Virus record (IMG/VR): IMGVR_UViG_3300050821_007764
Location: 25,049-89,048 of that record
Strand: one strand, 5' to 3'
DNA from: a virus
Length of the DNA stretch: 64,000 nucleotides
Shown: positions 3,987-37,245 of the stretch, one piece after another
Numbering within the stretch: the first letter of the stretch is position 1
How the letters are laid out: each line of letters opens with the position of its first letter
Translations under genes and position numbers: made by a program
The notes under the pieces: generated by a model
The model's database searches: none
What the model was told of the DNA's origin: nothing
The model's input: the letters and a program-made list of their open reading frames with translations, nothing else

Positions 3987-4339
3987 CCGCCGAAGCCGTG
4001 CGGTGGCTGGAGGGGGAATTCGACAGCCACCGCATTCAGGAAGTAGCCGGGTTCGAATACGAGCCACCGGCCCACAGCTCCACCGAGTACCAGCGGCCCG
4101 TGCTGGAATTCATCGACGACGTGGACGGGTGCTGTTTCATGTGCCGGACGGGATCCCCGGAGCGCTGTTCGTGGTTCAGATCCGTGTTCCCTTCGCCATG
4201 GGCGTCCACCATGTTGCTGGGGCTTCCTTGGACGGAGGAGCGCGAAAGGGCGTGGCTCAGCTGGGAAACCCTGTCTGACTGCGAGTACGACCAGCGAATA
4301 GACGTCTACCTAGAGAAGACAAGAAAGGAATGCGCATGA
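3983..4339 (+). CDS. hypothetical protein
   Basis: TTGA overlap with the upstream stop; ATGA overlap with the downstream gene. Confidence 0.55.
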   Translation: MTAEAVRWLEGEFDSHRIQEVAGFEYEPPAHSSTEYQRPVLEFIDDVDGCCFMCRTGSPERCSWFRSVFPSPWASTMLLGLPWTEERERAWLSWETLSDCEYDQRIDVYLEKTRKECA

Positions 4340-28051: not shown

Positions 28052-28303
28052 GTGGGACACACGCGCATCACCAACAGCGATCGTGGGGCCAGCGTCATCG
28101 GCCAGGGCGCACACCCGGACACCGGCCGCAGCCTCAACGGCAGGCGGGGCAAGGTTGTGGATGTCAAAGATCACTTCGGCGAGGAGCTCGTCGGTGTGAG
28201 GTGGGAGGGCTCCAGCGAGGTCGACTACGTCCGACAGCGCAACGTCTCCGGAACCGGCCCGTCCGAGGAAACACTCCCCCAGCACCAGCGGCGGAAGCGG
28301 TAG
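28052..28303 (+). CDS. hypothetical protein (SH3-like beta barrel?)
   Basis: GKVVDV...VGVRWEG; strong RBS. Confidence 0.6.
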   Translation: MGHTRITNSDRGASVIGQGAHPDTGRSLNGRRGKVVDVKDHFGEELVGVRWEGSSEVDYVRQRNVSGTGPSEETLPQHQRRKR

Positions 28304-28316
28304 GATCCAGAAGCAT

Positions 28317-28396
28317 GCCGCGTTCGGTCTAGGAAGACCAGGCTGCCTGTAAAGCAGCTGCCTCCGGCTAACCAGGATCGATACCTGGGCGCGGCA
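28317..28396 (+). tRNA. atypical tRNA-Tyr(GTA)
   Basis: GCCGCGT/GCGCGGC-A; GCTGC-CTGTAAA-GCAGC; short D loop TAGGAA; T loop ATCGATA. Confidence 0.7.
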
Positions 28397-28398
28397 CG

Positions 28399-28475
28399 GA
28401 ATACCCTGGGTGCACAGGCCCTACTAAGACGGGTCGACTGCTGGAGGAGGCGGGCATTGACCGCCCAGGGTATTC
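28399..28475 (+). ncRNA. unknown structured RNA motif, copy A
   Basis: 12-bp closing stem; core CACAGRCCCTACTAAGA..CGGGTCGA..CATTGACCG shared with 30107-30183. Confidence 0.7.
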
Positions 28476-28496
28476 TTCGTCCCACAACTCAAGACT

Positions 28497-28573
28497 CCCG
28501 CCCCTCGAAGTGGCCAGCGACTGCTACAGCTGGCTCCCGGTCAACCGGCCAGACCGGCAGACGAGAAGGCGGG
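28497..28573 (+). ncRNA. multibranch structured RNA
   Basis: CCCGCC.CTCG/CGAG..GGCGGG enclosing GCCAGC/GCTGGC and CCGGTC/GACCGG hairpins. Confidence 0.5.
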
Positions 28574-28577
28574 TCCC

Positions 28578-28673
28578 GGTTCCGCTGCTGCACTCCCGCA
28601 TCCGAGTGCGGTGATCTACTGGACACAGGTCTCGCCGACTTCCCCCGTCGGTGATGAGTGCAGTAGCGGAACC
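28578..28673 (+). ncRNA. cloverleaf-shaped non-tRNA RNA
   Basis: 18-bp outer stem enclosing three hairpins (CCGCA/TGCGG, GATCT/AGGTC, TCGCCGAC/GTCGGTGA). Confidence 0.6.
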
Positions 28674-28681
28674 CTGAACGG

Positions 28682-28755
28682 GGGCCTGTAGCTCAACTGG
28701 TCAGAGCATCGGACTTTTAATCCGAGGGTTGCGGGTTCGAGACCCGCCGGGCCTA
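28682..28755 (+). tRNA. tRNA-Lys(TTT)
   Basis: Cloverleaf; TCGGA-CTTTTAA-TCCGA. Confidence 0.9.
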
Positions 28756-28776
28756 CGCGCGGAAGGAGAAGGAAAG

Positions 28777-28956
28777 ATGGTCGAGAACGATCCCAGTGAA
28801 GCCATCGCAGGGGCGACCCAGGAGGAACTGGACGCCCTTCAGCGGGCCTACGAGAAATCCCATCAAGAAGGGACGCTCGCCAGGATCGACCTGGAGCAGA
28901 AGCTCCGGCAGGACGCACGGCGCAACAAGGAAAAACCCAAGGGCAACCACCCTTGA
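28777..28956 (+). CDS. small hypothetical protein
   Basis: AAGGAGAAGG RBS. Confidence 0.55.
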   Translation: MVENDPSEAIAGATQEELDALQRAYEKSHQEGTLARIDLEQKLRQDARRNKEKPKGNHP

Positions 28957-28962
28957 CACGAT

Positions 28963-29079
28963 GGGGCTGCCAGTGGTGAGTACAGCAGACGGCACCGAAA
29001 CGTCCGTACGGCCGGTGAATACCGTCAACTCACCCGGAGGGGGCGCGCGACTGCGGGTTCGAATCCCGCCAGCTCCACC
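28963..29079 (+). ncRNA. mini tmRNA-like / Ala-acceptor tRNA-like RNA
   Basis: GGGGCTG/CAGCTCC-ACC with G3.U70; T arm GCGGG-TTCGAAT-CCCGC; long interrupted hairpin as body. Confidence 0.7.
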
Positions 29080-29266
29080 GGTTCCCGCTGCATAAAGCAC
29101 AGTAGGAACCACCGGGTCCAGCCGTGAGGTGGCTGGACCCACCCGGGGCCGCAGGTTGCCAAGGGAGTCCTGATCCGCTCCCCCAAGATCCCTTCAATGG
29201 GACTGGCCCCACCGAGCAAAGTATGCTAAAGTAGGACGAAGAACAGGAAGAAGGAAGCTGAATCTC

Positions 29267-30004
29267 ATGACCAGTCCCATGCTCAGCCAGATGATCGCGG
29301 TACGGAAGGGCCTCAAACTCCGCACCGCCGCCGCCGTGGACGTGATCTACAAGGATCTCCAGAAGGCCGCACTCTACGCAGGCTTGACCCGCACGTACAA
29401 GCCCAAGGCCGAGGACGGCGACAAACTCCCCCCGGAGTACACCAACGTCCAGAAGTCCGTCGAAGCATCCCTGCGTGCAATCGCGGACGAATGGACGAAG
29501 CTCCTTGACGTCGAGCTGACCGTGGACGAAGGCAACACCCACGCACGCGGGCGCGTCATCGTGGACGGCGAGGAACTGTTCAGCGCGCCGCCGACGTTCC
29601 TCCTTACCGTCGAGAAGAAGCTGATCGACGTCCGCACGGCCTTCTCCAAGGTCCCCGTCCTGGACCCGGCCGTCCGCTGGGAGCCGGACACCACCGGAAA
29701 TGCCACGTGGCGCTCCGTCCCGGAAGAGACCACCCGCAGCAAGAAGGTGCTCCGGAACCACGTCAAGGCCGAGGCCACCGAGAAGCACCCGGCCCAGGTG
29801 GAAACGTACAGTGCGGACGAGATCGTCGGCACGTGGGAGCTGACCAAGTTCTCCGGGGCCGTCAGCGCGGACACCCGCAGTCACCTGCTCCAGCGCGTCA
29901 ACACCCTCATCGACGCTGTACGACACGCCATCGAGGAGGCCAACTCCACCCTGGTTGAGCAGCAGCACGTCGGCGAGACGGTCTTCGCCTACCTGCTGGG
30001 GTAA
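29267..30004 (+). CDS. uncharacterised 245-aa protein, candidate partner of the downstream large ncRNA
   Basis: Strong RBS and high-GC codon usage; LSQMIAVRKG, GLTRTYKPKAEDGDKLPPE, ATEKHPAQV, FSGA, IEEANS. Confidence 0.85.
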   Translation: MTSPMLSQMIAVRKGLKLRTAAAVDVIYKDLQKAALYAGLTRTYKPKAEDGDKLPPEYTNVQKSVEASLRAIADEWTKLLDVELTVDEGNTHARGRVIVDGEELFSAPPTFLLTVEKKLIDVRTAFSKVPVLDPAVRWEPDTTGNATWRSVPEETTRSKKVLRNHVKAEATEKHPAQVETYSADEIVGTWELTKFSGAVSADTRSHLLQRVNTLIDAVRHAIEEANSTLVEQQHVGETVFAYLLG

Positions 30005-30010
30005 ACTCCG

Positions 30011-30097
30011 CTGGTCGACATCGCGGTAACGACGAAGGGGATGAGGACAGGCGATGATTGGTCCTCCCCACTCTGGCCAGATCCTCTTCGTGACCAG
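30011..30097 (+). ncRNA. structured RNA domain immediately after the 245-aa gene
   Basis: CTGGTC/GACCAG, ACGAAGGGGAT/ATCCTCTTCGT and GAGGAC/GTCCTC nested stems. Confidence 0.55.
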
Positions 30098-30106
30098 TTC
30101 AAGACC

Positions 30107-30183
30107 GGTGTTCCGGGTTCACAGACCCTACTAAGAAGCGGGTCGAGGATGGCTGAATCTCCTCATTGACCGCCTGGAACACC
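30107..30183 (+). ncRNA. unknown structured RNA motif, copy B
   Basis: GGTGTTCCGGG/CCTGGAACACC closing stem; same core as copy A. Confidence 0.7.
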
Positions 30184-30193
30184 CCCAAAGACT

Positions 30194-30590
30194 CCCGGTT
30201 TGAGCGACCGGGTGCCCGTGAGGGCAAAGTTGAAGCACAAGCTGAAACTGATGGAGCAACCTCGTTCAACGTGCAGGTTCGATCCCTGCCCGGGGCTCTG
30301 TGCCCATGCCTGTCGACGTCAGACATGGGCACGCGCACTTCCTCTGCTTGGACACGGCAGAGGAAGTGCACCCGCCCCGGTGGCCCAAATGGTAGAGGCG
30401 TTCGAGGGCCATGAAGCTGAAGCTCTCGCTCCAACATGAAACAACAGCGCCAAACCCGTAATCGACGAGACCAGCACTACAGTGGGAGAATGGCGGTTCG
30501 AATCCGTTCCTGGGCACTCCGAGCCCGGGTGGCCGTAATGGGAACGGCAGCCTGCTTTGAAGCTGAAACTGGTCCGACAGTGTACGGGCG
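30194..30590 (+). ncRNA. large structured RNA with two circularly permuted tRNA modules and repeated GAAGCTGAARCT motifs
   Basis: T arm 30273-30289, acceptor CCGGGGC/GCCCCGG, then D arm; T arm 30492-30508, acceptor CCTGGGC/GCCCGGG, then D arm; motifs at 30230, 30411, 30557. Confidence 0.8.
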
Positions 30591-30601
30591 AGGGTGCAGT
30601 G

Positions 30602-30674
30602 ATATTGGTAGCGCATTTGGCAGCGCGTCAGCCTCAAAAGCTGAAGGTAGCGGGTTCGAATCCCGCCCAACACA
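30602..30674 (+). tRNA. atypical/pseudo tRNA with CAA anticodon and short variable loop
   Basis: TCAGC-CTCAAAA-GCTGA; intact D and T arms; two A.C mismatches in the acceptor. Confidence 0.6.
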
Positions 30675-30718
30675 AAACTCTATTGGGGGCGTAGGATGGT
30701 GATTCCTACGCCCCTCCA

Positions 30719-34900: not shown

Positions 34901-35050
34901 GTCGGAAGGGCCGGGGTACAGAATCCGGTTACTTCATTTGAATGATAATCAAAGGTTATGGGTTCGAGTCCCATCGGGTCCACTTGTGGGCCTGTAGCTC
35001 AATTGGCAGAGAAACGTGCCCGGTTTCGCTTTGATATCGTCCCTTCCGTC
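34901..35050 (+). ncRNA. Y RNA 1 (YrlA-like), permuted tRNA with Ile-GAU anticodon hairpin
   Basis: Outer stem CGGAAGGG/CCCTTCCG; GGGGTACAG..CGGTTACTTC..TTGATATC scaffold; TTTGA-ATGATAA-TCAAA, T arm, closed acceptor, D arm. Confidence 0.85.
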
Positions 35051-35062
35051 ACAGACTTCCTC

Positions 35063-35195
35063 TCAGGTGTACAGGTAGCGGTTACTTCCCTCTGCAAAAG
35101 GAGAGACGCGGGTTCGAATCCCGTCCGGCCCTCTACGGGTCGGTTGCGTAGCGGCCTAACGCGCTTAATGTTCCTGCTTCCGCTTTGAAATCTGA
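35063..35195 (+). ncRNA. Y RNA 2 (YrlA-like), permuted tRNA with Cys-GCA anticodon loop
   Basis: GGTGTACAG..CGGTTACTTC..TTGAAATC scaffold; CCT-CTGCAAA-AGG, T arm, CCGGCCC/GGGTCGG, D arm. Confidence 0.85.
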
Positions 35196-35213
35196 CTGGC
35201 ACAACTTCATACA

Positions 35214-35354
35214 CTGCCTGGTGTACAGGAGACGGTTACTTCCCCTTTGGAGGGAGAGGTCGCGGGTTCAAGTCCCGCCTGGCTGGGGAAACCGGCCGGT
35301 AGCTCAGTTGGTTAGAGCGCTCACGTTCCCGTCCCCGCTTTTGAAATCAGGCAG
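35214..35354 (+). ncRNA. Y RNA 3 (YrlA-like), permuted tRNA with Gln-UUG anticodon hairpin
   Basis: CTGCCTG/CAGGCAG outer stem; same scaffold; TTCCC-CTTTGGA-GGGAG, T arm, closed acceptor, D arm. Confidence 0.85.
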
Positions 35355-35357
35355 GTT

Positions 35358-35467
35358 GCAGGAGCCGCTTCCGGTGTACTGCACGCGGATACTTCACCTT
35401 TGTTTCTGGTACAAAATAGTGAGAGTCTTCCCCCCGCGTGTGCTTCGATATCGGAGACGGCTCCTGC
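35358..35467 (+). ncRNA. Y RNA 4, no T/D arms, isolated Gln-CUG anticodon hairpin
   Basis: GCAGGAGCCG/CGGCTCCTGC outer stem; GGTGTAC..CGGATACTTC..TCGATATC; TTTGT-TTCTGGT-ACAAA. Confidence 0.8.
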
Positions 35468-35505
35468 TTGATATCGGCACCCACCGGTGTAGGAAAGGAA
35501 CAGAG

Positions 35506-37245
35506 ATGGCCCGCTACAACATCCAGAAGCCCCCGCGCACCCAGGTCCAGGGCGGCTCCGCATACCCCGCCAAGGGCACCAGCAGCCAGCAGGCCACCGC
35601 CGTCAACGGTGAGGGCCGCACCGCATGGCTGATGGACGAGAAAACCGGGCTCTACCTCGGGGCCACCTCGGCGTTCGCCGGACAGGACACCTTCTACGAG
35701 AAGGGTGCCGAGCGCGACGAACGCCTCATCGCCTTGGCGCACAAGCTCGCCGTCGAGGACTTCGCGTGGACCTACGACTTCCTGGTCTGGCTGCGCTCCG
35801 AGGGCAATATGCGCACCGCCCCGATCATGCTCGCTGTTGAGGTTGTCCGTGCACGCATTGCCGCCAGGGAATACGGCGCTGCCGGGTCCCGTGTACCAGA
35901 GCCGGGATCTGGCCAAGTCGCCATGACCAACCGTCGGCTCATCGATGCCGTCCTCCAGCGCGCGGACGAGCCCGGTGAAATGCTGGCCTACTGCGAGAAC
36001 ATCCACGGACGCCCCACGCCGAAAGCCATCAAGCGCGGTGCCGCTGACGCGGTTGCGCGCCTGTACAACGAGCGGAACTTCCTGCGCTACAACAGCGAGA
36101 CCAAGGCGCTGGGGTTCGGTGCCGTGATCGAGCTCGCGCAGATGGACCGCATTCCCGGCTGGCAGGGCGACCTGTTCCGGTACGCCATCGACATGCAGCA
36201 CGGCAACGCCAAGGAGATCCCGGACAGCCTGACCGCCCTCCGGGCCCGTGACGCGGTCAACAAGATGACGCCCCAGGAACGGCACAACACTGCCCGCCGC
36301 GAGCTGGCAGCACCCGGCTCAACGGTGCTCACGTCCGCGATGGCAGGACAGTGGGAGTGGCTCCACTCGGCACTCGGTGACACGAAGGGCGTCAAGGGCG
36401 CGCTGACCAAGAAAGAGCAGTGGGAGCTCGTTGCCCCGCAGATGGGCATCGGCGCTGTCGTCAAGAACCTGCGCAACCTGGACGAGGCCGGTTTCCGTAC
36501 AGGCGATCCGGTGGTTACGCGTTTCTGCGAGCGTCTCGGCAACGAGCAGCAGATCGCACGCTCCCGCATGTTCCCGTTTCGGTTCTTCACGGCCTACCTG
36601 ATGCTAAACAGCGTCACGTGGTCCGCAGCGCTGGAACAGGCCGCCAACCACTCCCTGGCCAGCATCCCCGACCTGCCCGGCCGCACGCTGGTCCTGGTGG
36701 ACACCTCGGACTCCATGAACAGCAAGGTGTCCAAGGACTCCGTCATGACCTACATGAAGGCCGCCGCGCTGTTCGGCACCGCCTTGAAGATCAAGAGCCC
36801 GGACCGGGTCGATCTCTGGGGCTTCGCCGACGGCCAGTTCCGCGCGGACGCGGGCCACGGGTACAGCCTGCTGCGGTGTGCCGAGGACTTCACCAAGCAG
36901 TCCGGCATTGTCGGCCACGGCACCGCCATGGAGGCCGCCATTCGGGCCACCTACGACAAGCACGACCGGGTGATCATTCTGTCGGACATGCAGGCGTTTC
37001 CCGACGAGTCCACGCTGAGCGGTTGGCCGTACCGGAACTACTACGCCCCCGGCGGAGCCATTGGCGACGTCGCCGCAGCGGTCCCGGTCAAGGTCCCTGT
37101 GTACGGATTCCACCTGGCGGCCGGAAAGACCACGCCGCTCGGAAAGGGCAACCGGCACAGCCTGGGCGGCCTGTCGGACGCATCCTTCAAGCAGATCGGT
37201 CAGCTGGAAAAGCTGGGTGTCGGTTCCTGGCCCTGGCAGTCCTGA
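35506..37245 (+). CDS. rsr: Ro60/Rsr TROVE-domain RNA-binding protein with C-terminal vWA
   Basis: DTFYEKG..RDER; WLRSEGNMRTAP; QRADEPGE; KNLRNLDEAG; SRMFPFRF; TLVLVDTSDSM; DRVIILSDMQ. Confidence 0.95.
   Translation: MARYNIQKPPRTQVQGGSAYPAKGTSSQQATAVNGEGRTAWLMDEKTGLYLGATSAFAGQDTFYEKGAERDERLIALAHKLAVEDFAWTYDFLVWLRSEGNMRTAPIMLAVEVVRARIAAREYGAAGSRVPEPGSGQVAMTNRRLIDAVLQRADEPGEMLAYCENIHGRPTPKAIKRGAADAVARLYNERNFLRYNSETKALGFGAVIELAQMDRIPGWQGDLFRYAIDMQHGNAKEIPDSLTALRARDAVNKMTPQERHNTARRELAAPGSTVLTSAMAGQWEWLHSALGDTKGVKGALTKKEQWELVAPQMGIGAVVKNLRNLDEAGFRTGDPVVTRFCERLGNEQQIARSRMFPFRFFTAYLMLNSVTWSAALEQAANHSLASIPDLPGRTLVLVDTSDSMNSKVSKDSVMTYMKAAALFGTALKIKSPDRVDLWGFADGQFRADAGHGYSLLRCAEDFTKQSGIVGHGTAMEAAIRATYDKHDRVIILSDMQAFPDESTLSGWPYRNYYAPGGAIGDVAAAVPVKVPVYGFHLAAGKTTPLGKGNRHSLGGLSDASFKQIGQLEKLGVGSWPWQS

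What the first reader, a model, noticed from the sequence alone, without database searches (positions are those of the whole stretch)
28399..30183. Duplicated unknown RNA motif with a fully covarying closing stem (28399-28475 and 30107-30183)
Seen: the two copies differ in their outer stems and one inner hairpin but keep pairing. They share GGGTKCACAGRCCC-TACTAAGA-(AG)CGGGTCGA...CATTGACCGCC, and both are followed shortly by AAGACTCCCG. Conserved loops on variable stems indicate a functional RNA. Copy A starts 2 nt after a tRNA 3' end. Inference: a small ribozyme or processing element, or a protein-binding RNA. I cannot match it to a family I know.
Basis: partly seen in the sequence, partly recalled or inferred. 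Interest (0 to 1): 0.7.

Follow-up and report, generated by a model that had tools for sequence, protein, structure and literature searches.

The report
New three-way-junction RNA in phage tRNA island
Two copies of a small, well-folded RNA of no known family sit among the tRNA genes of a soil phage that also carries a Ro60 protein and its Y RNAs; it may be an extra partner of that protein, but what it does is still a guess.

Summary
Both about 77-nt copies (28399-28475, 30106-30184, + strand) are real. Three more copies exist in two related uncultured phage contigs (L013 has two, L021 has one). No Rfam family matches at E<=10.

Five sequences support a three-way junction. It has a 9-13 bp closing stem, a 5-bp hairpin with loop UANUAAGA(NN)C, a variable hairpin and conserved junction strands. 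In this fold 91% of cells pair and 15 of 23 pairs change on both sides.

The function is inferred only. The phage encodes a Ro60/TROVE protein preceded by tandem YrlA-like units 4.7-6.4 kb downstream. The motif's junction next to its closing stem (GGU|GCACAGG ... CAUUGAC) resembles the same part of those units (GGU|GUACAGG ... CUUUGAW). My best guess, at about 0.3, is a small Y-RNA-like Ro60 partner cut out of the tRNA transcript. That similarity is only borderline significant (about 5 of 100 shuffles). The motif lacks the CGAA motif and a tRNA-like domain, and it is absent from 4 of 4 other Ro60-phage records.

The rivals are a processing element or ribozyme, or a ligand of another protein. 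The family is tiny: three contigs.

The parts
28399..28475 (+). Motif copy A, whole element. P1 28399-28411 pairs with 28463-28475. 5' junction strand GCACA 28412-28416. Px 28417-28421 pairs with 28431-28435, with loop UACUAAGAC 28422-28430. Variable hairpin Pv 28436-28455. 3' junction strand AUUGACC 28456-28462.
   Evidence: Sequence. Model R1 scores 88.2 bits. Pair counts. RNAalifold.
30106..30184 (+). Motif copy B. P1 30107-30118 pairs with 30172-30183. Junction UCACA 30119-30123. Px 30124-30128 pairs with 30140-30144, with loop UACUAAGAAGC 30129-30139. Pv 30145-30164. Junction AUUGACC 30165-30171.
   Evidence: Sequence. R1 scores 85.2 bits. The minimum-free-energy fold equals the consensus fold.
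28317..28397 (+). Atypical tRNA-Tyr(GUA)-like gene that copy A abuts. The A-type copies in L013 and L021 follow the homologous element.
   Evidence: ARAGORN. Not reported by the Rfam tRNA model at E<=10. The homologous sequences with anticodon loop CUGUAAA were read by eye; ARAGORN does not call them.
28491..28500 (+). AAGACTCCCG after copy A. It is the 5' strand of the next module, a bulged stem GA[CU]CCCGCC/GGCGGGUC.
30188..30197 (+). AAGACTCCCG after copy B. It is the 5' strand of the hairpin CCCGG-UUUGAGCGA-CCGGG, which is conserved after the L013 B-type copy.
29267..30004 (+). DUF7873 gene lying between the two copies. Copy B lies 102 nt after its stop here and 12 nt after the stop in L013.
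   Evidence: Pfam PF25283, E 1.5e-79. Synteny.
34903..35470 (+). Four tandem Y-RNA-like units. Three have a permuted tRNA-like core. Their basal module resembles the motif's junction.
   Evidence: Rfam YrlA RF02553 at 38.3, 26.8 and 22.9 bits, all below the gathering score of 69. Sequence.
35185..37245 (+). Ro60/TROVE protein ORF as listed. Its first codons overlap the Y units, so the real start is probably near 35.5 kb (inference).
   Evidence: Pfam TROVE 31.8-33.2 bits against a cut-off of 23. PDB 9L5Y/9KOP, the Thermus phage Ro60, at E 2.8e-16.

Best explanation
The two elements are copies of a small (about 75-85 nt) structured non-coding RNA transcribed from the + strand, inside the phage's long block of tRNA and tRNA-like genes.

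Each copy folds into a three-way junction. A long closing stem (P1, 9-13 bp) ends in an invariant G-C, G-C, U-G. A short internal loop and 2-bp helix are made from the conserved junction strands 5'-NCACR and 5'-AYUGAYC. There is a 5-bp hairpin (Px) with the conserved loop UANUAAGA(NN)C, and a hairpin of free sequence and length (Pv).

Inferred steps: the RNA is released from the polycistronic transcript by the host nucleases that mature the neighbouring tRNAs. It then acts by binding a protein through its conserved junction and loop. The partner I think most likely is the phage's own Ro60/TROVE protein. The motif would then be a small Y-RNA-like RNA without a tRNA-like domain, adding another effector module to the phage's Ro60 particles.

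The fold and the strand are shown by the data. Release from the transcript, protein binding and the identity of the partner are inferred.
For: Fold:
- Five copies from three contigs were aligned (A5). 91.3% of 115 cells form standard pairs and 15 of 23 pairs changed on both sides. 0 of 500 shuffles reached this, and slid controls gave 34-47%.
- RNAalifold finds the same three helices on its own, plus C17-G71 and R18-U70.
- The consensus fold beats the alternative fold by 4.4-11.1 kcal/mol in 5 of 5 copies.

Strand:
- 14 of 115 cells are G-U pairs, which would be A-C mismatches on the other strand. All neighbouring tRNAs are on the + strand.

Not a terminator:
- No T-run follows P1. No + strand terminator-like site was found between 24.4 and 34.9 kb.

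Ro60 link:
- The genome encodes a TROVE protein preceded by YrlA-like units, 4.7-6.4 kb downstream on the same strand.
- The only other complete genome with the motif (G001, from L013) has the same arrangement.
- In both the motif and the Y units a closing stem ends in GGU. It is followed by G(Y)ACAGG on the 5' side, and by C(W)UUGA(M) just before the 3' strand of the stem.
- The exact word GGTGYACAGG occurs 3 times in 64 kb: once in copy A and in two Y units.
- In more distant Ro60 phages the same position of the Y units reads GGUG(C/U)GAAG. That contains the GNCGAA/CGAA motif tied to Ro60 binding in PMC4201824 and PMC12135203 (passages read).
- Bacteria studied so far each have a second, non-tRNA-like Y RNA (PMC4201824).
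Against: - The motif lacks CGAA. It has CGAC, CGAG, CGCU, CGGC and CGAG in the five copies.
- It has no T-arm or D-arm, and the Rfam YrlA model gives no hit on it at E<=10.
- It is not adjacent to the Ro60 gene; tRNAs and about 3.4 kb of ORFs lie between them.
- A test with weight matrices built from the Y units alone ranks copy A as the best hit outside the Y-unit array in the window (14.7 bits). However, 5 of 100 Markov shuffles reach that score. Copy B ranks 6th, and the copies in L013 and L021 rank 1st, 7th and 2nd. The shared module is therefore only borderline significant.
- The descriptor was derived from the data, so it is circular.
- 0 of 4 other Ro60-phage records, two of them complete, hold the motif. 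L021 is too short (8.6 kb) to show whether it has Ro60.
- The Ro-like helix GGGUCGA/UUGACC that first suggested this idea is contradicted by the compensatory changes.
Confidence: 0.3

Rival explanations
1. It is a processing element, possibly a self-cleaving ribozyme of an undescribed class, that defines RNA ends in the polycistronic tRNA/ncRNA transcript. One such end would be the 3' end of the tRNA-Tyr-like RNA that all three A-type copies abut.
For: - A-type copies start 1-3 nt after the tRNA-like 3' end in 3 of 3 genomes.
- The junction and loop are invariant while the stems turn over, as in small ribozyme cores.
- There is a precedent: HDV-like theta ribozymes next to phage tRNAs, postulated to process tRNA 3' trailers (PMC10879173, abstract and discussion passages).
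Against: - No known ribozyme family matches at E<=10.
- The helices are simply nested. No strand lies between Px and Pv where an HDV-type P1 3' strand would sit (read from the alignment).
- No hammerhead core words CUGANGA or GAAA are present (motifs recalled).
- B-type copies follow a protein gene, not a tRNA.
- No cleavage data exist.
Confidence: 0.12
2. It is a protein- or RNA-binding ncRNA with a partner other than Ro60. Candidates are the DUF7873 protein encoded beside the B-type copies, a host tRNA-processing or decay enzyme, or a host defence nuclease that it decoys.
For: - B-type copies lie 12-102 nt after the DUF7873 stop codon in 2 of 3 genomes.
- DUF7873 genes sit inside tRNA arrays in unrelated actinophages and are followed there by 400-530 nt with no annotated gene on that strand.
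- The conserved loop UANUAAGA is free to contact a partner.
Against: - The motif model finds nothing in 4 of 4 DUF7873-bearing actinophage loci with filters off.
- L021 has the DUF7873 gene without a B copy.
- DUF7873 has no known function. It has no PDB relative by profile, no PHROG and no paper.
- The reverse complement of the loop occurs nowhere else in the window, so there is no obvious antisense target in cis.
Confidence: 0.25
3. It is not an RNA at all but a DNA-level repeat, such as a recombination site, a mobile-element end or a protein-binding palindrome.
For: Two copies lie 1.7 kb apart and each is bounded by inverted repeats.
Against: - The inverted repeats differ completely between copies but stay complementary. 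They include 14 G-U cells that work only in + strand RNA.
- The internal helices covary.
- Both copies have the same orientation, that of the surrounding tRNAs.
- The sequence between the copies is an ordinary conserved gene and a set of RNA modules.
Confidence: 0.03

Closest known systems
Small non-tRNA-like Y RNAs of bacteria (S. Typhimurium and M. smegmatis YrlB, D. radiodurans Yrn2) and Yrl1/Yrl2 of Thermus phage phiLo
   Same: - A small RNA closed by a stem made of its 5' and 3' ends, with an internal loop next to that stem.
- Encoded on the same strand as a Ro60 gene and upstream of it.
- Coexists with tRNA-like Y RNAs (PMC4201824, PMC12135203; passages read).
   Different: - Those RNAs lie within about 2 kb of Ro60 and carry the GNCGAAN0-1G/CGAA motif.
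- This motif lies 4.7-6.4 kb away, lacks CGAA, and is a three-way junction with a conserved UANUAAGA loop rather than a long hairpin.
- Binding is untested.
YrlA (Rfam RF02553)
   Same: It occurs in the same genome. The basal stem-loop-stem next to the terminal stem looks alike (GGU|GYACAGG ... CWUUGA).
   Different: The motif has no T-arm, D-arm or closed acceptor stem. RF02553 gives no hit on it at E<=10.
Theta (minimal HDV-like) ribozymes next to phage tRNAs (PMC10879173)
   Same: A small structured RNA placed directly 3' of a phage tRNA.
   Different: There is no nested double pseudoknot and no Rfam HDV-type hit. Half of the copies are not next to a tRNA. Host and habitat differ: these are high-GC soil phages.
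Hammerhead ribozyme (as a three-way-junction RNA)
   Same: Three helices meet at a conserved core, and the stems vary.
   Different: The core sequences differ (none of the recalled hammerhead core words is present). Rfam gives no hit.

Membership tests
Y RNA / Yrl (Ro60-binding RNAs) | Encoded close to a Ro60/TROVE gene and on the same strand | tested here: inconclusive
   Same strand. The distance is 4.7-6.4 kb to the Y-unit array and about 5-7 kb to the gene. Known cases lie within about 2 kb (PMC4201824).
Y RNA / Yrl (Ro60-binding RNAs) | Stem formed by the 5' and 3' ends, flanking an internal loop or bulge | tested here: met
   P1 of 9-13 bp, then loop NCA/AYC, then 2 bp.
Y RNA / Yrl (Ro60-binding RNAs) | GNCGAAN0-1G / CGAA (bacteria, phage) or GGUCCGA (animals) in the 5' strand of that stem | tested here: not met
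   There is no CGAA in 5 of 5 copies. GGGUCGA is present in 3 of 5 copies, but it forms the 3' strand of Px, and its pairing with UUGACC is contradicted by compensatory changes. The phage's own Y units also lack CGAA and read GUACAGG there.
Y RNA / Yrl (Ro60-binding RNAs) | Binds Ro60 | not testable with these tools
   No RNA-protein prediction or experiment was available.
YrlA (RF02553) | Permuted tRNA-like domain (T arm, closed acceptor stem, D arm) | tested here: not met
   No RF02553 hit on the motif at E<=10. No T-loop or D-loop sequence is present.
Known self-cleaving ribozymes (hammerhead, twister, twister-sister, pistol, hatchet, HDV-like) | Match to the family's covariance model / core | tested here: not met
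   cmscan of 28200-30700 at E<=10 lists none. The nested topology leaves no strand for an HDV-type P1.
Known self-cleaving ribozymes | Site-specific self-cleavage | not testable with these tools
   Needs a bench assay.
tRNA | Cloverleaf with anticodon loop and T loop | tested here: not met
   ARAGORN and the Rfam tRNA model do not report the motif. It has three helices, not four.
Intrinsic terminator | GC-rich hairpin followed by a U run | tested here: not met
   The tails are TTCGTCCC and CCCAAAGA. The scan lists no site at either copy.

The most novel reading that the evidence does not exclude
The motif is the first example of a new class of small self-cleaving or self-processing RNA. It would trim the 3' trailer of the phage's tRNA-Tyr-like RNA and the 3' end of the DUF7873 message, so that the phage's RNA island matures without relying on host nucleases. 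A less radical novel reading, at about 0.3, is a new type of Ro60 ligand placed outside the Ro60 operon, whose three-way junction is a new effector module.
Probability: 0.1. Interest if true: 0.8.

Novelty: new variant of a known kind. Interest (0 to 1): 0.5.

Why it matters
Phage Ro60 systems are barely understood. One structure paper (phiLo) and one survey are all I found.

If this RNA binds the phage Ro60, then Y-RNA-like partners can lie far from the Ro60 gene, can lack both CGAA and a tRNA-like domain, and are missed by present models. It would also give a compact three-way-junction module to test for what it recruits.

If instead it is a processing element, it would add a new way in which phages mature tRNA arrays.

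Either way it is a well-supported new structured RNA for Rfam-type curation, though so far it is seen in only three soil-phage contigs.

Tried and rejected
1. Ro-like bulged helix GGGUCGA/UUGACC, my first lead. It matches the recalled vertebrate GGUCCGA/UUGACC. I rejected it as the native pairing. It has 27 of 30 cells paired, but the changes in L013A and L013B break it while keeping Px. The fold containing it is 4.4-11.1 kcal/mol worse in 5 of 5 copies.

2. It is rejected for the same reason.

3. A 17-mer scan of viral contigs gave 9 stretches. All were chance matches without the rest of the motif.

4. Wider pattern scans.
- Viral contigs: 2 stretches, both in the L013 contig.
- Metagenome contigs: 6 stretches, of which 1 was real (L021). 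L022 and L024 are one identical sequence, and L023, L025 and L026 lack the stems. R1 gave at most 16 bits on L022, L023, L025 and L026. L024 was not given.
- Genome contigs: 0.

5. Model R1.
- DUF7873-bearing actinophages GodonK, NiceHouse, Racecar and Keelan: only plain hairpins, at most 19.3 bits.
- 16 loci that share the Y-unit 5' word: one 15.9-bit hit.
- 4 other Ro60-phage records: 0 hits.

6. megablast and blastn against the 50,697 phage records found no relative. Only tRNA pieces and the DUF7873 gene matched.

7. The search for related loci found none, both with the DUF7873 protein alone and with the 13-sequence alignment A6.

8. Sequencing runs: no RNA holder is listed.

9. Contigs of four soil runs were laid on the region.
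- They show identical pieces (X2).
- X3 holds a near-identical piece over copy B.
- X5 holds a relative at about 90% over copy A. The differences shown are 28415 C>T and 1-nt deletions at 28400 and 28449; 48 further differences across the laid stretch were not shown.
- One X5 contig joins 30000 to 30105.
- The contig sequences cannot be read out, so they added no rows to the alignment.

10. DUF7873 function: no PDB relative by profile at E<=10, no PHROG and no paper.

11. The tRNA-like, terminator and HDV-like readings are rejected; see the membership tests.

12. Supplements of PMC4201824 (the tables of phage YrlA RNAs) were not opened. They may list relatives of the Y units, but they cannot contain this motif by name.
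Full report
**What is there**

The window is part of an 89-kb uncultured virus record (G000) with about 63% G+C. Between about 24.4 and 37.3 kb every called tRNA and the listed + strand ORFs run in one direction. That stretch holds 14 ARAGORN tRNAs and several tRNA-like oddities.

They share the stated conserved words. Their outer stems differ in sequence but stay complementary.

CCCTACTAAGA occurs only at these two places in the window. The chance expectation is 0.23, and 4 of 100 shuffles gave two or more. Both + strand copies fold better than dinucleotide shuffles, with z -4.69 and -3.34.

No Rfam family matches them, either at gathering scores over the whole window or at E<=10 over 28200-30700.

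**Relatives**

The 50,697 phage records hold no close relative. A first 17-mer scan of viral contigs gave 9 chance hits.

A TROVE-protein search brought in L013, a 107.7-kb viral contig that is 99% complete. It is syntenic with the window and carries two copies of the motif. One follows the homologous tRNA-Tyr-like element (L013:3846-3924). The other starts 12 nt after the DUF7873 stop codon (L013:5340-5424).

A pattern scan of metagenome contigs gave one more true copy, L021:5676-5757. It also sits right after the tRNA-Tyr-like element, on an 8.6-kb contig. The same scan gave five chance stretches. Genome contigs gave none.

I built a covariance model (R1). It finds exactly these five distinct copies at 76-88 bits. 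Everything else scores at most 22.4 bits across 228,862 bases of window and loci. It finds two copies in each of the two phage records, G000 and G001. It finds none in the following:
- 4 of 4 DUF7873-bearing actinophage loci, with filters off;
- 16 loci that share a Y-unit word;
- 4 of 4 other Ro60-phage records, two of them complete.

The family is therefore real but narrow. Contigs of soil runs that hold relatives cannot be read out.

**Fold**

I aligned the five copies without gaps in the outer stem (A5). They support a three-way junction with these parts:
- P1, alignment columns 1-13 with 75-87. The inner three pairs G-C, G-C, U-G are invariant, and 9 pairs changed on both sides.
- Px, columns 19-23 with 35-39. 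All 25 of 25 cells pair.
- Pv, columns 40-44 with 63-67. Its closing G-C is invariant and the other 4 pairs changed on both sides. Loop length varies.

Overall, 91.3% of 115 cells pair and 15 of 23 pairs changed on both sides. 0 of 500 column shuffles reached any measure, and slid controls gave 34-47%.

RNAalifold, run without my structure, returns the same helices. It adds C17-G71 and R18-U70 between the two junction strands.

The key point for Px comes from two independent double changes:
- In L013A, CCC became CAC together with GGG becoming GUG.
- In L013B, CCC became UCC together with GGG becoming GGA.

These changes keep Px. The fold containing those two helices is also 4.4-11.1 kcal/mol less stable in all five copies.

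Fourteen G-U cells show that the + strand is the RNA strand.

The caveat is that the five sequences come from three related phages: three A-type orthologues and two B-type orthologues. The counts are therefore not independent events. Even so, the P1 sequences of the three A-type orthologues share almost nothing outside the invariant inner pairs.

**Context**

A-type copies start 1-3 nt after an atypical tRNA-Tyr(GUA)-like gene in 3 of 3 genomes. ARAGORN calls that gene only in the window. Rfam's tRNA model does not report it. In L013 and L021 I read the anticodon loop CUGUAAA by eye.

B-type copies follow the DUF7873 gene in 2 of 3 genomes. In L021 that place is taken by a tmRNA-like element.

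The 'AAGACTCCCG' after each window copy is the 5' strand of the next module, a bulged stem GA[CU]CCCG.../...CGGGUC. No U run follows the motif and no terminator-like site is reported there.

The region reads as a string of separately closed RNA modules. This fits co-transcription followed by nuclease processing, but that is an inference. No sigma-70-like promoter was found in 24.0-37.5 kb, and actinophage promoters may differ.

**The Ro60 lead**

The ORF at 35185-37245 carries a TROVE domain, at 31.8-33.2 bits against a cut-off of 23. It matches the solved Ro60 of Thermus phage phiLo at E 2.8e-16.

Directly upstream, at 34903-35470, lie four tandem units. Three of them match the tRNA-like core of Rfam YrlA below threshold, at 38.3, 26.8 and 22.9 bits against a gathering score of 69. 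L013 has the same array, and so do the more distant Ro60 phages L014, L016 and L017. Other first readers of this scan noted the array as well. I had found it before looking at their notes.

In the window and L013 units the terminal stem ends in GG(U/G). On the 5' side it is followed by GUACAGG. On the 3' side GCUUUGA(A/U)AUC precedes the other strand of the stem.

The motif has the same layout. P1 ends in GGU, followed by (G/U/A)CAC(A/G)G. CA(U/C)UGA(C/U)C precedes GCC of P1.

The exact word GGTGYACAGG occurs three times in the window: in copy A and in two Y units. A descriptor that combines both words with a stem of 5 bp or more hits only motif copies and Y units in the window, L013 and L021. 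Markov shuffles gave a mean of 0.01 hits. That descriptor was derived from these sequences, so the result is circular.

In L014 and L016 the same 5' position reads GGUG(C/U)GAAG. This holds the GNCGAAN0-1G/CGAA motif that Chen et al. 2014 relate to Rsr binding. Mutating that motif lowers phiLo Ro60 affinity three- to four-fold (PMC4201824 and PMC12135203, passages read).

So the motif resembles the lineage-specific version of the presumed Ro60-binding module. All three bacteria studied have a second Y RNA that is not tRNA-like.

**How strong is that?**

It is not strong. I built weight matrices from the nine Y units only and scanned under a stem rule.
- Copy A was the best hit outside the Y-unit array in the window (14.7 bits), but 5 of 100 shuffled windows reached that score.
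- Copy B ranked 6th.
- The L013 copies ranked 1st and 7th, and the L021 copy ranked 2nd.
- Most Y units themselves failed my strict stem rule, which is a weakness of the test.

Other points count against the link as well:
- The motif has no CGAA, no tRNA-like domain and no YrlA hit.
- It lies 4.7-6.4 kb from the array.
- It is absent from 4 of 4 other Ro60-phage records.
- L021 is too short to test for Ro60.

I therefore put the Ro60-partner reading at about 0.3. A partner other than Ro60 gets about 0.25, a processing element or ribozyme about 0.12, and a DNA-level repeat about 0.03. The remainder is left open. That the element is a genuine structured RNA I hold at about 0.9.

**Comparison with known families**

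- It works like, at most, a small Y RNA. It fails two tested defining features of Yrl RNAs (the CGAA-type motif and, for YrlA, the tRNA-like domain), so I do not file it as a member.
- It is not a tRNA or a terminator.
- It is not a member of any Rfam ribozyme family.
- Its nested topology cannot form the HDV-type double pseudoknot of the theta ribozymes that flank gut-phage tRNAs (PMC10879173).

**Novelty and verdict**

This is a new, well-supported structured RNA motif, known from three soil-phage contigs, set in an unusual RNA island. I searched for phage Y RNAs and Ro60, theta ribozymes and DUF7873. I found no paper describing this motif. A sequence motif cannot be searched for in that library, so this is weak evidence that it is unpublished.

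I rate interest at 0.5. The fold is solid and the Ro60 context is intriguing. The function is unproven and the family is tiny.

Noticed in passing
window 28963-29080 (+); L021 about 7140 onward: An RNA with a tmRNA/tRNA-like acceptor stem and T arm, but only about 80 nt between them. Rfam tmRNA scores 33.5 bits, below the gathering score of 47. In L021 a copy sits after the DUF7873 gene, where the window has motif copy B.
   Followed up: partly
window 34903-35470 (+) and 35185-37245 (+): Four tandem Y-RNA-like units, three of them with a permuted tRNA-like core. They lie in front of a Ro60/TROVE gene whose closest solved relative is the Thermus phage phiLo Ro60. These units lack CGAA and read GUACAGG at that position.
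   Followed up: partly
window 28561-28677 (+); L013 about 4035-4130: Another RNA module closed by an 18-bp stem (GGTTCCGCTGCTGCACTC/GAGTGCAGTAGCGGAACC). The stem is kept in L013 through compensatory changes. The module contains GUGAUGA.
   Followed up: no
window 30001-30104 (+): A 104-nt hairpin module between the DUF7873 stop codon and copy B. It is present in L021 but absent from L013. It is also absent from a soil-metagenome relative whose contig joins 30000 to 30105.
   Followed up: no
window 30186-30600 (+): Sequences with T-arm and acceptor-like 3' ends, long insertions and repeated GAAGCUGAA words. They are partly conserved in L013. They are not called as tRNAs.
   Followed up: no
window 29267-30004 (+); L030, L031, L032: The DUF7873 gene lies inside tRNA arrays in the unrelated actinophages GodonK, NiceHouse and Racecar. 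In each it is followed by 400-530 nt with no annotated gene on that strand. The family has 393 relatives at E<=1e-30 and no known function.
   Followed up: partly
L037/L047, L036/L041/L042 (viral contigs): The Y-unit 5' word GTACAGRNNNCGGYTACTTC also occurs in lower-GC viral contigs. In L037/L047 it lies upstream of a second TTACTTC word and a sequence that looks like the start of a T arm. This version of the Y-RNA 5' element may therefore be widespread.
   Followed up: no
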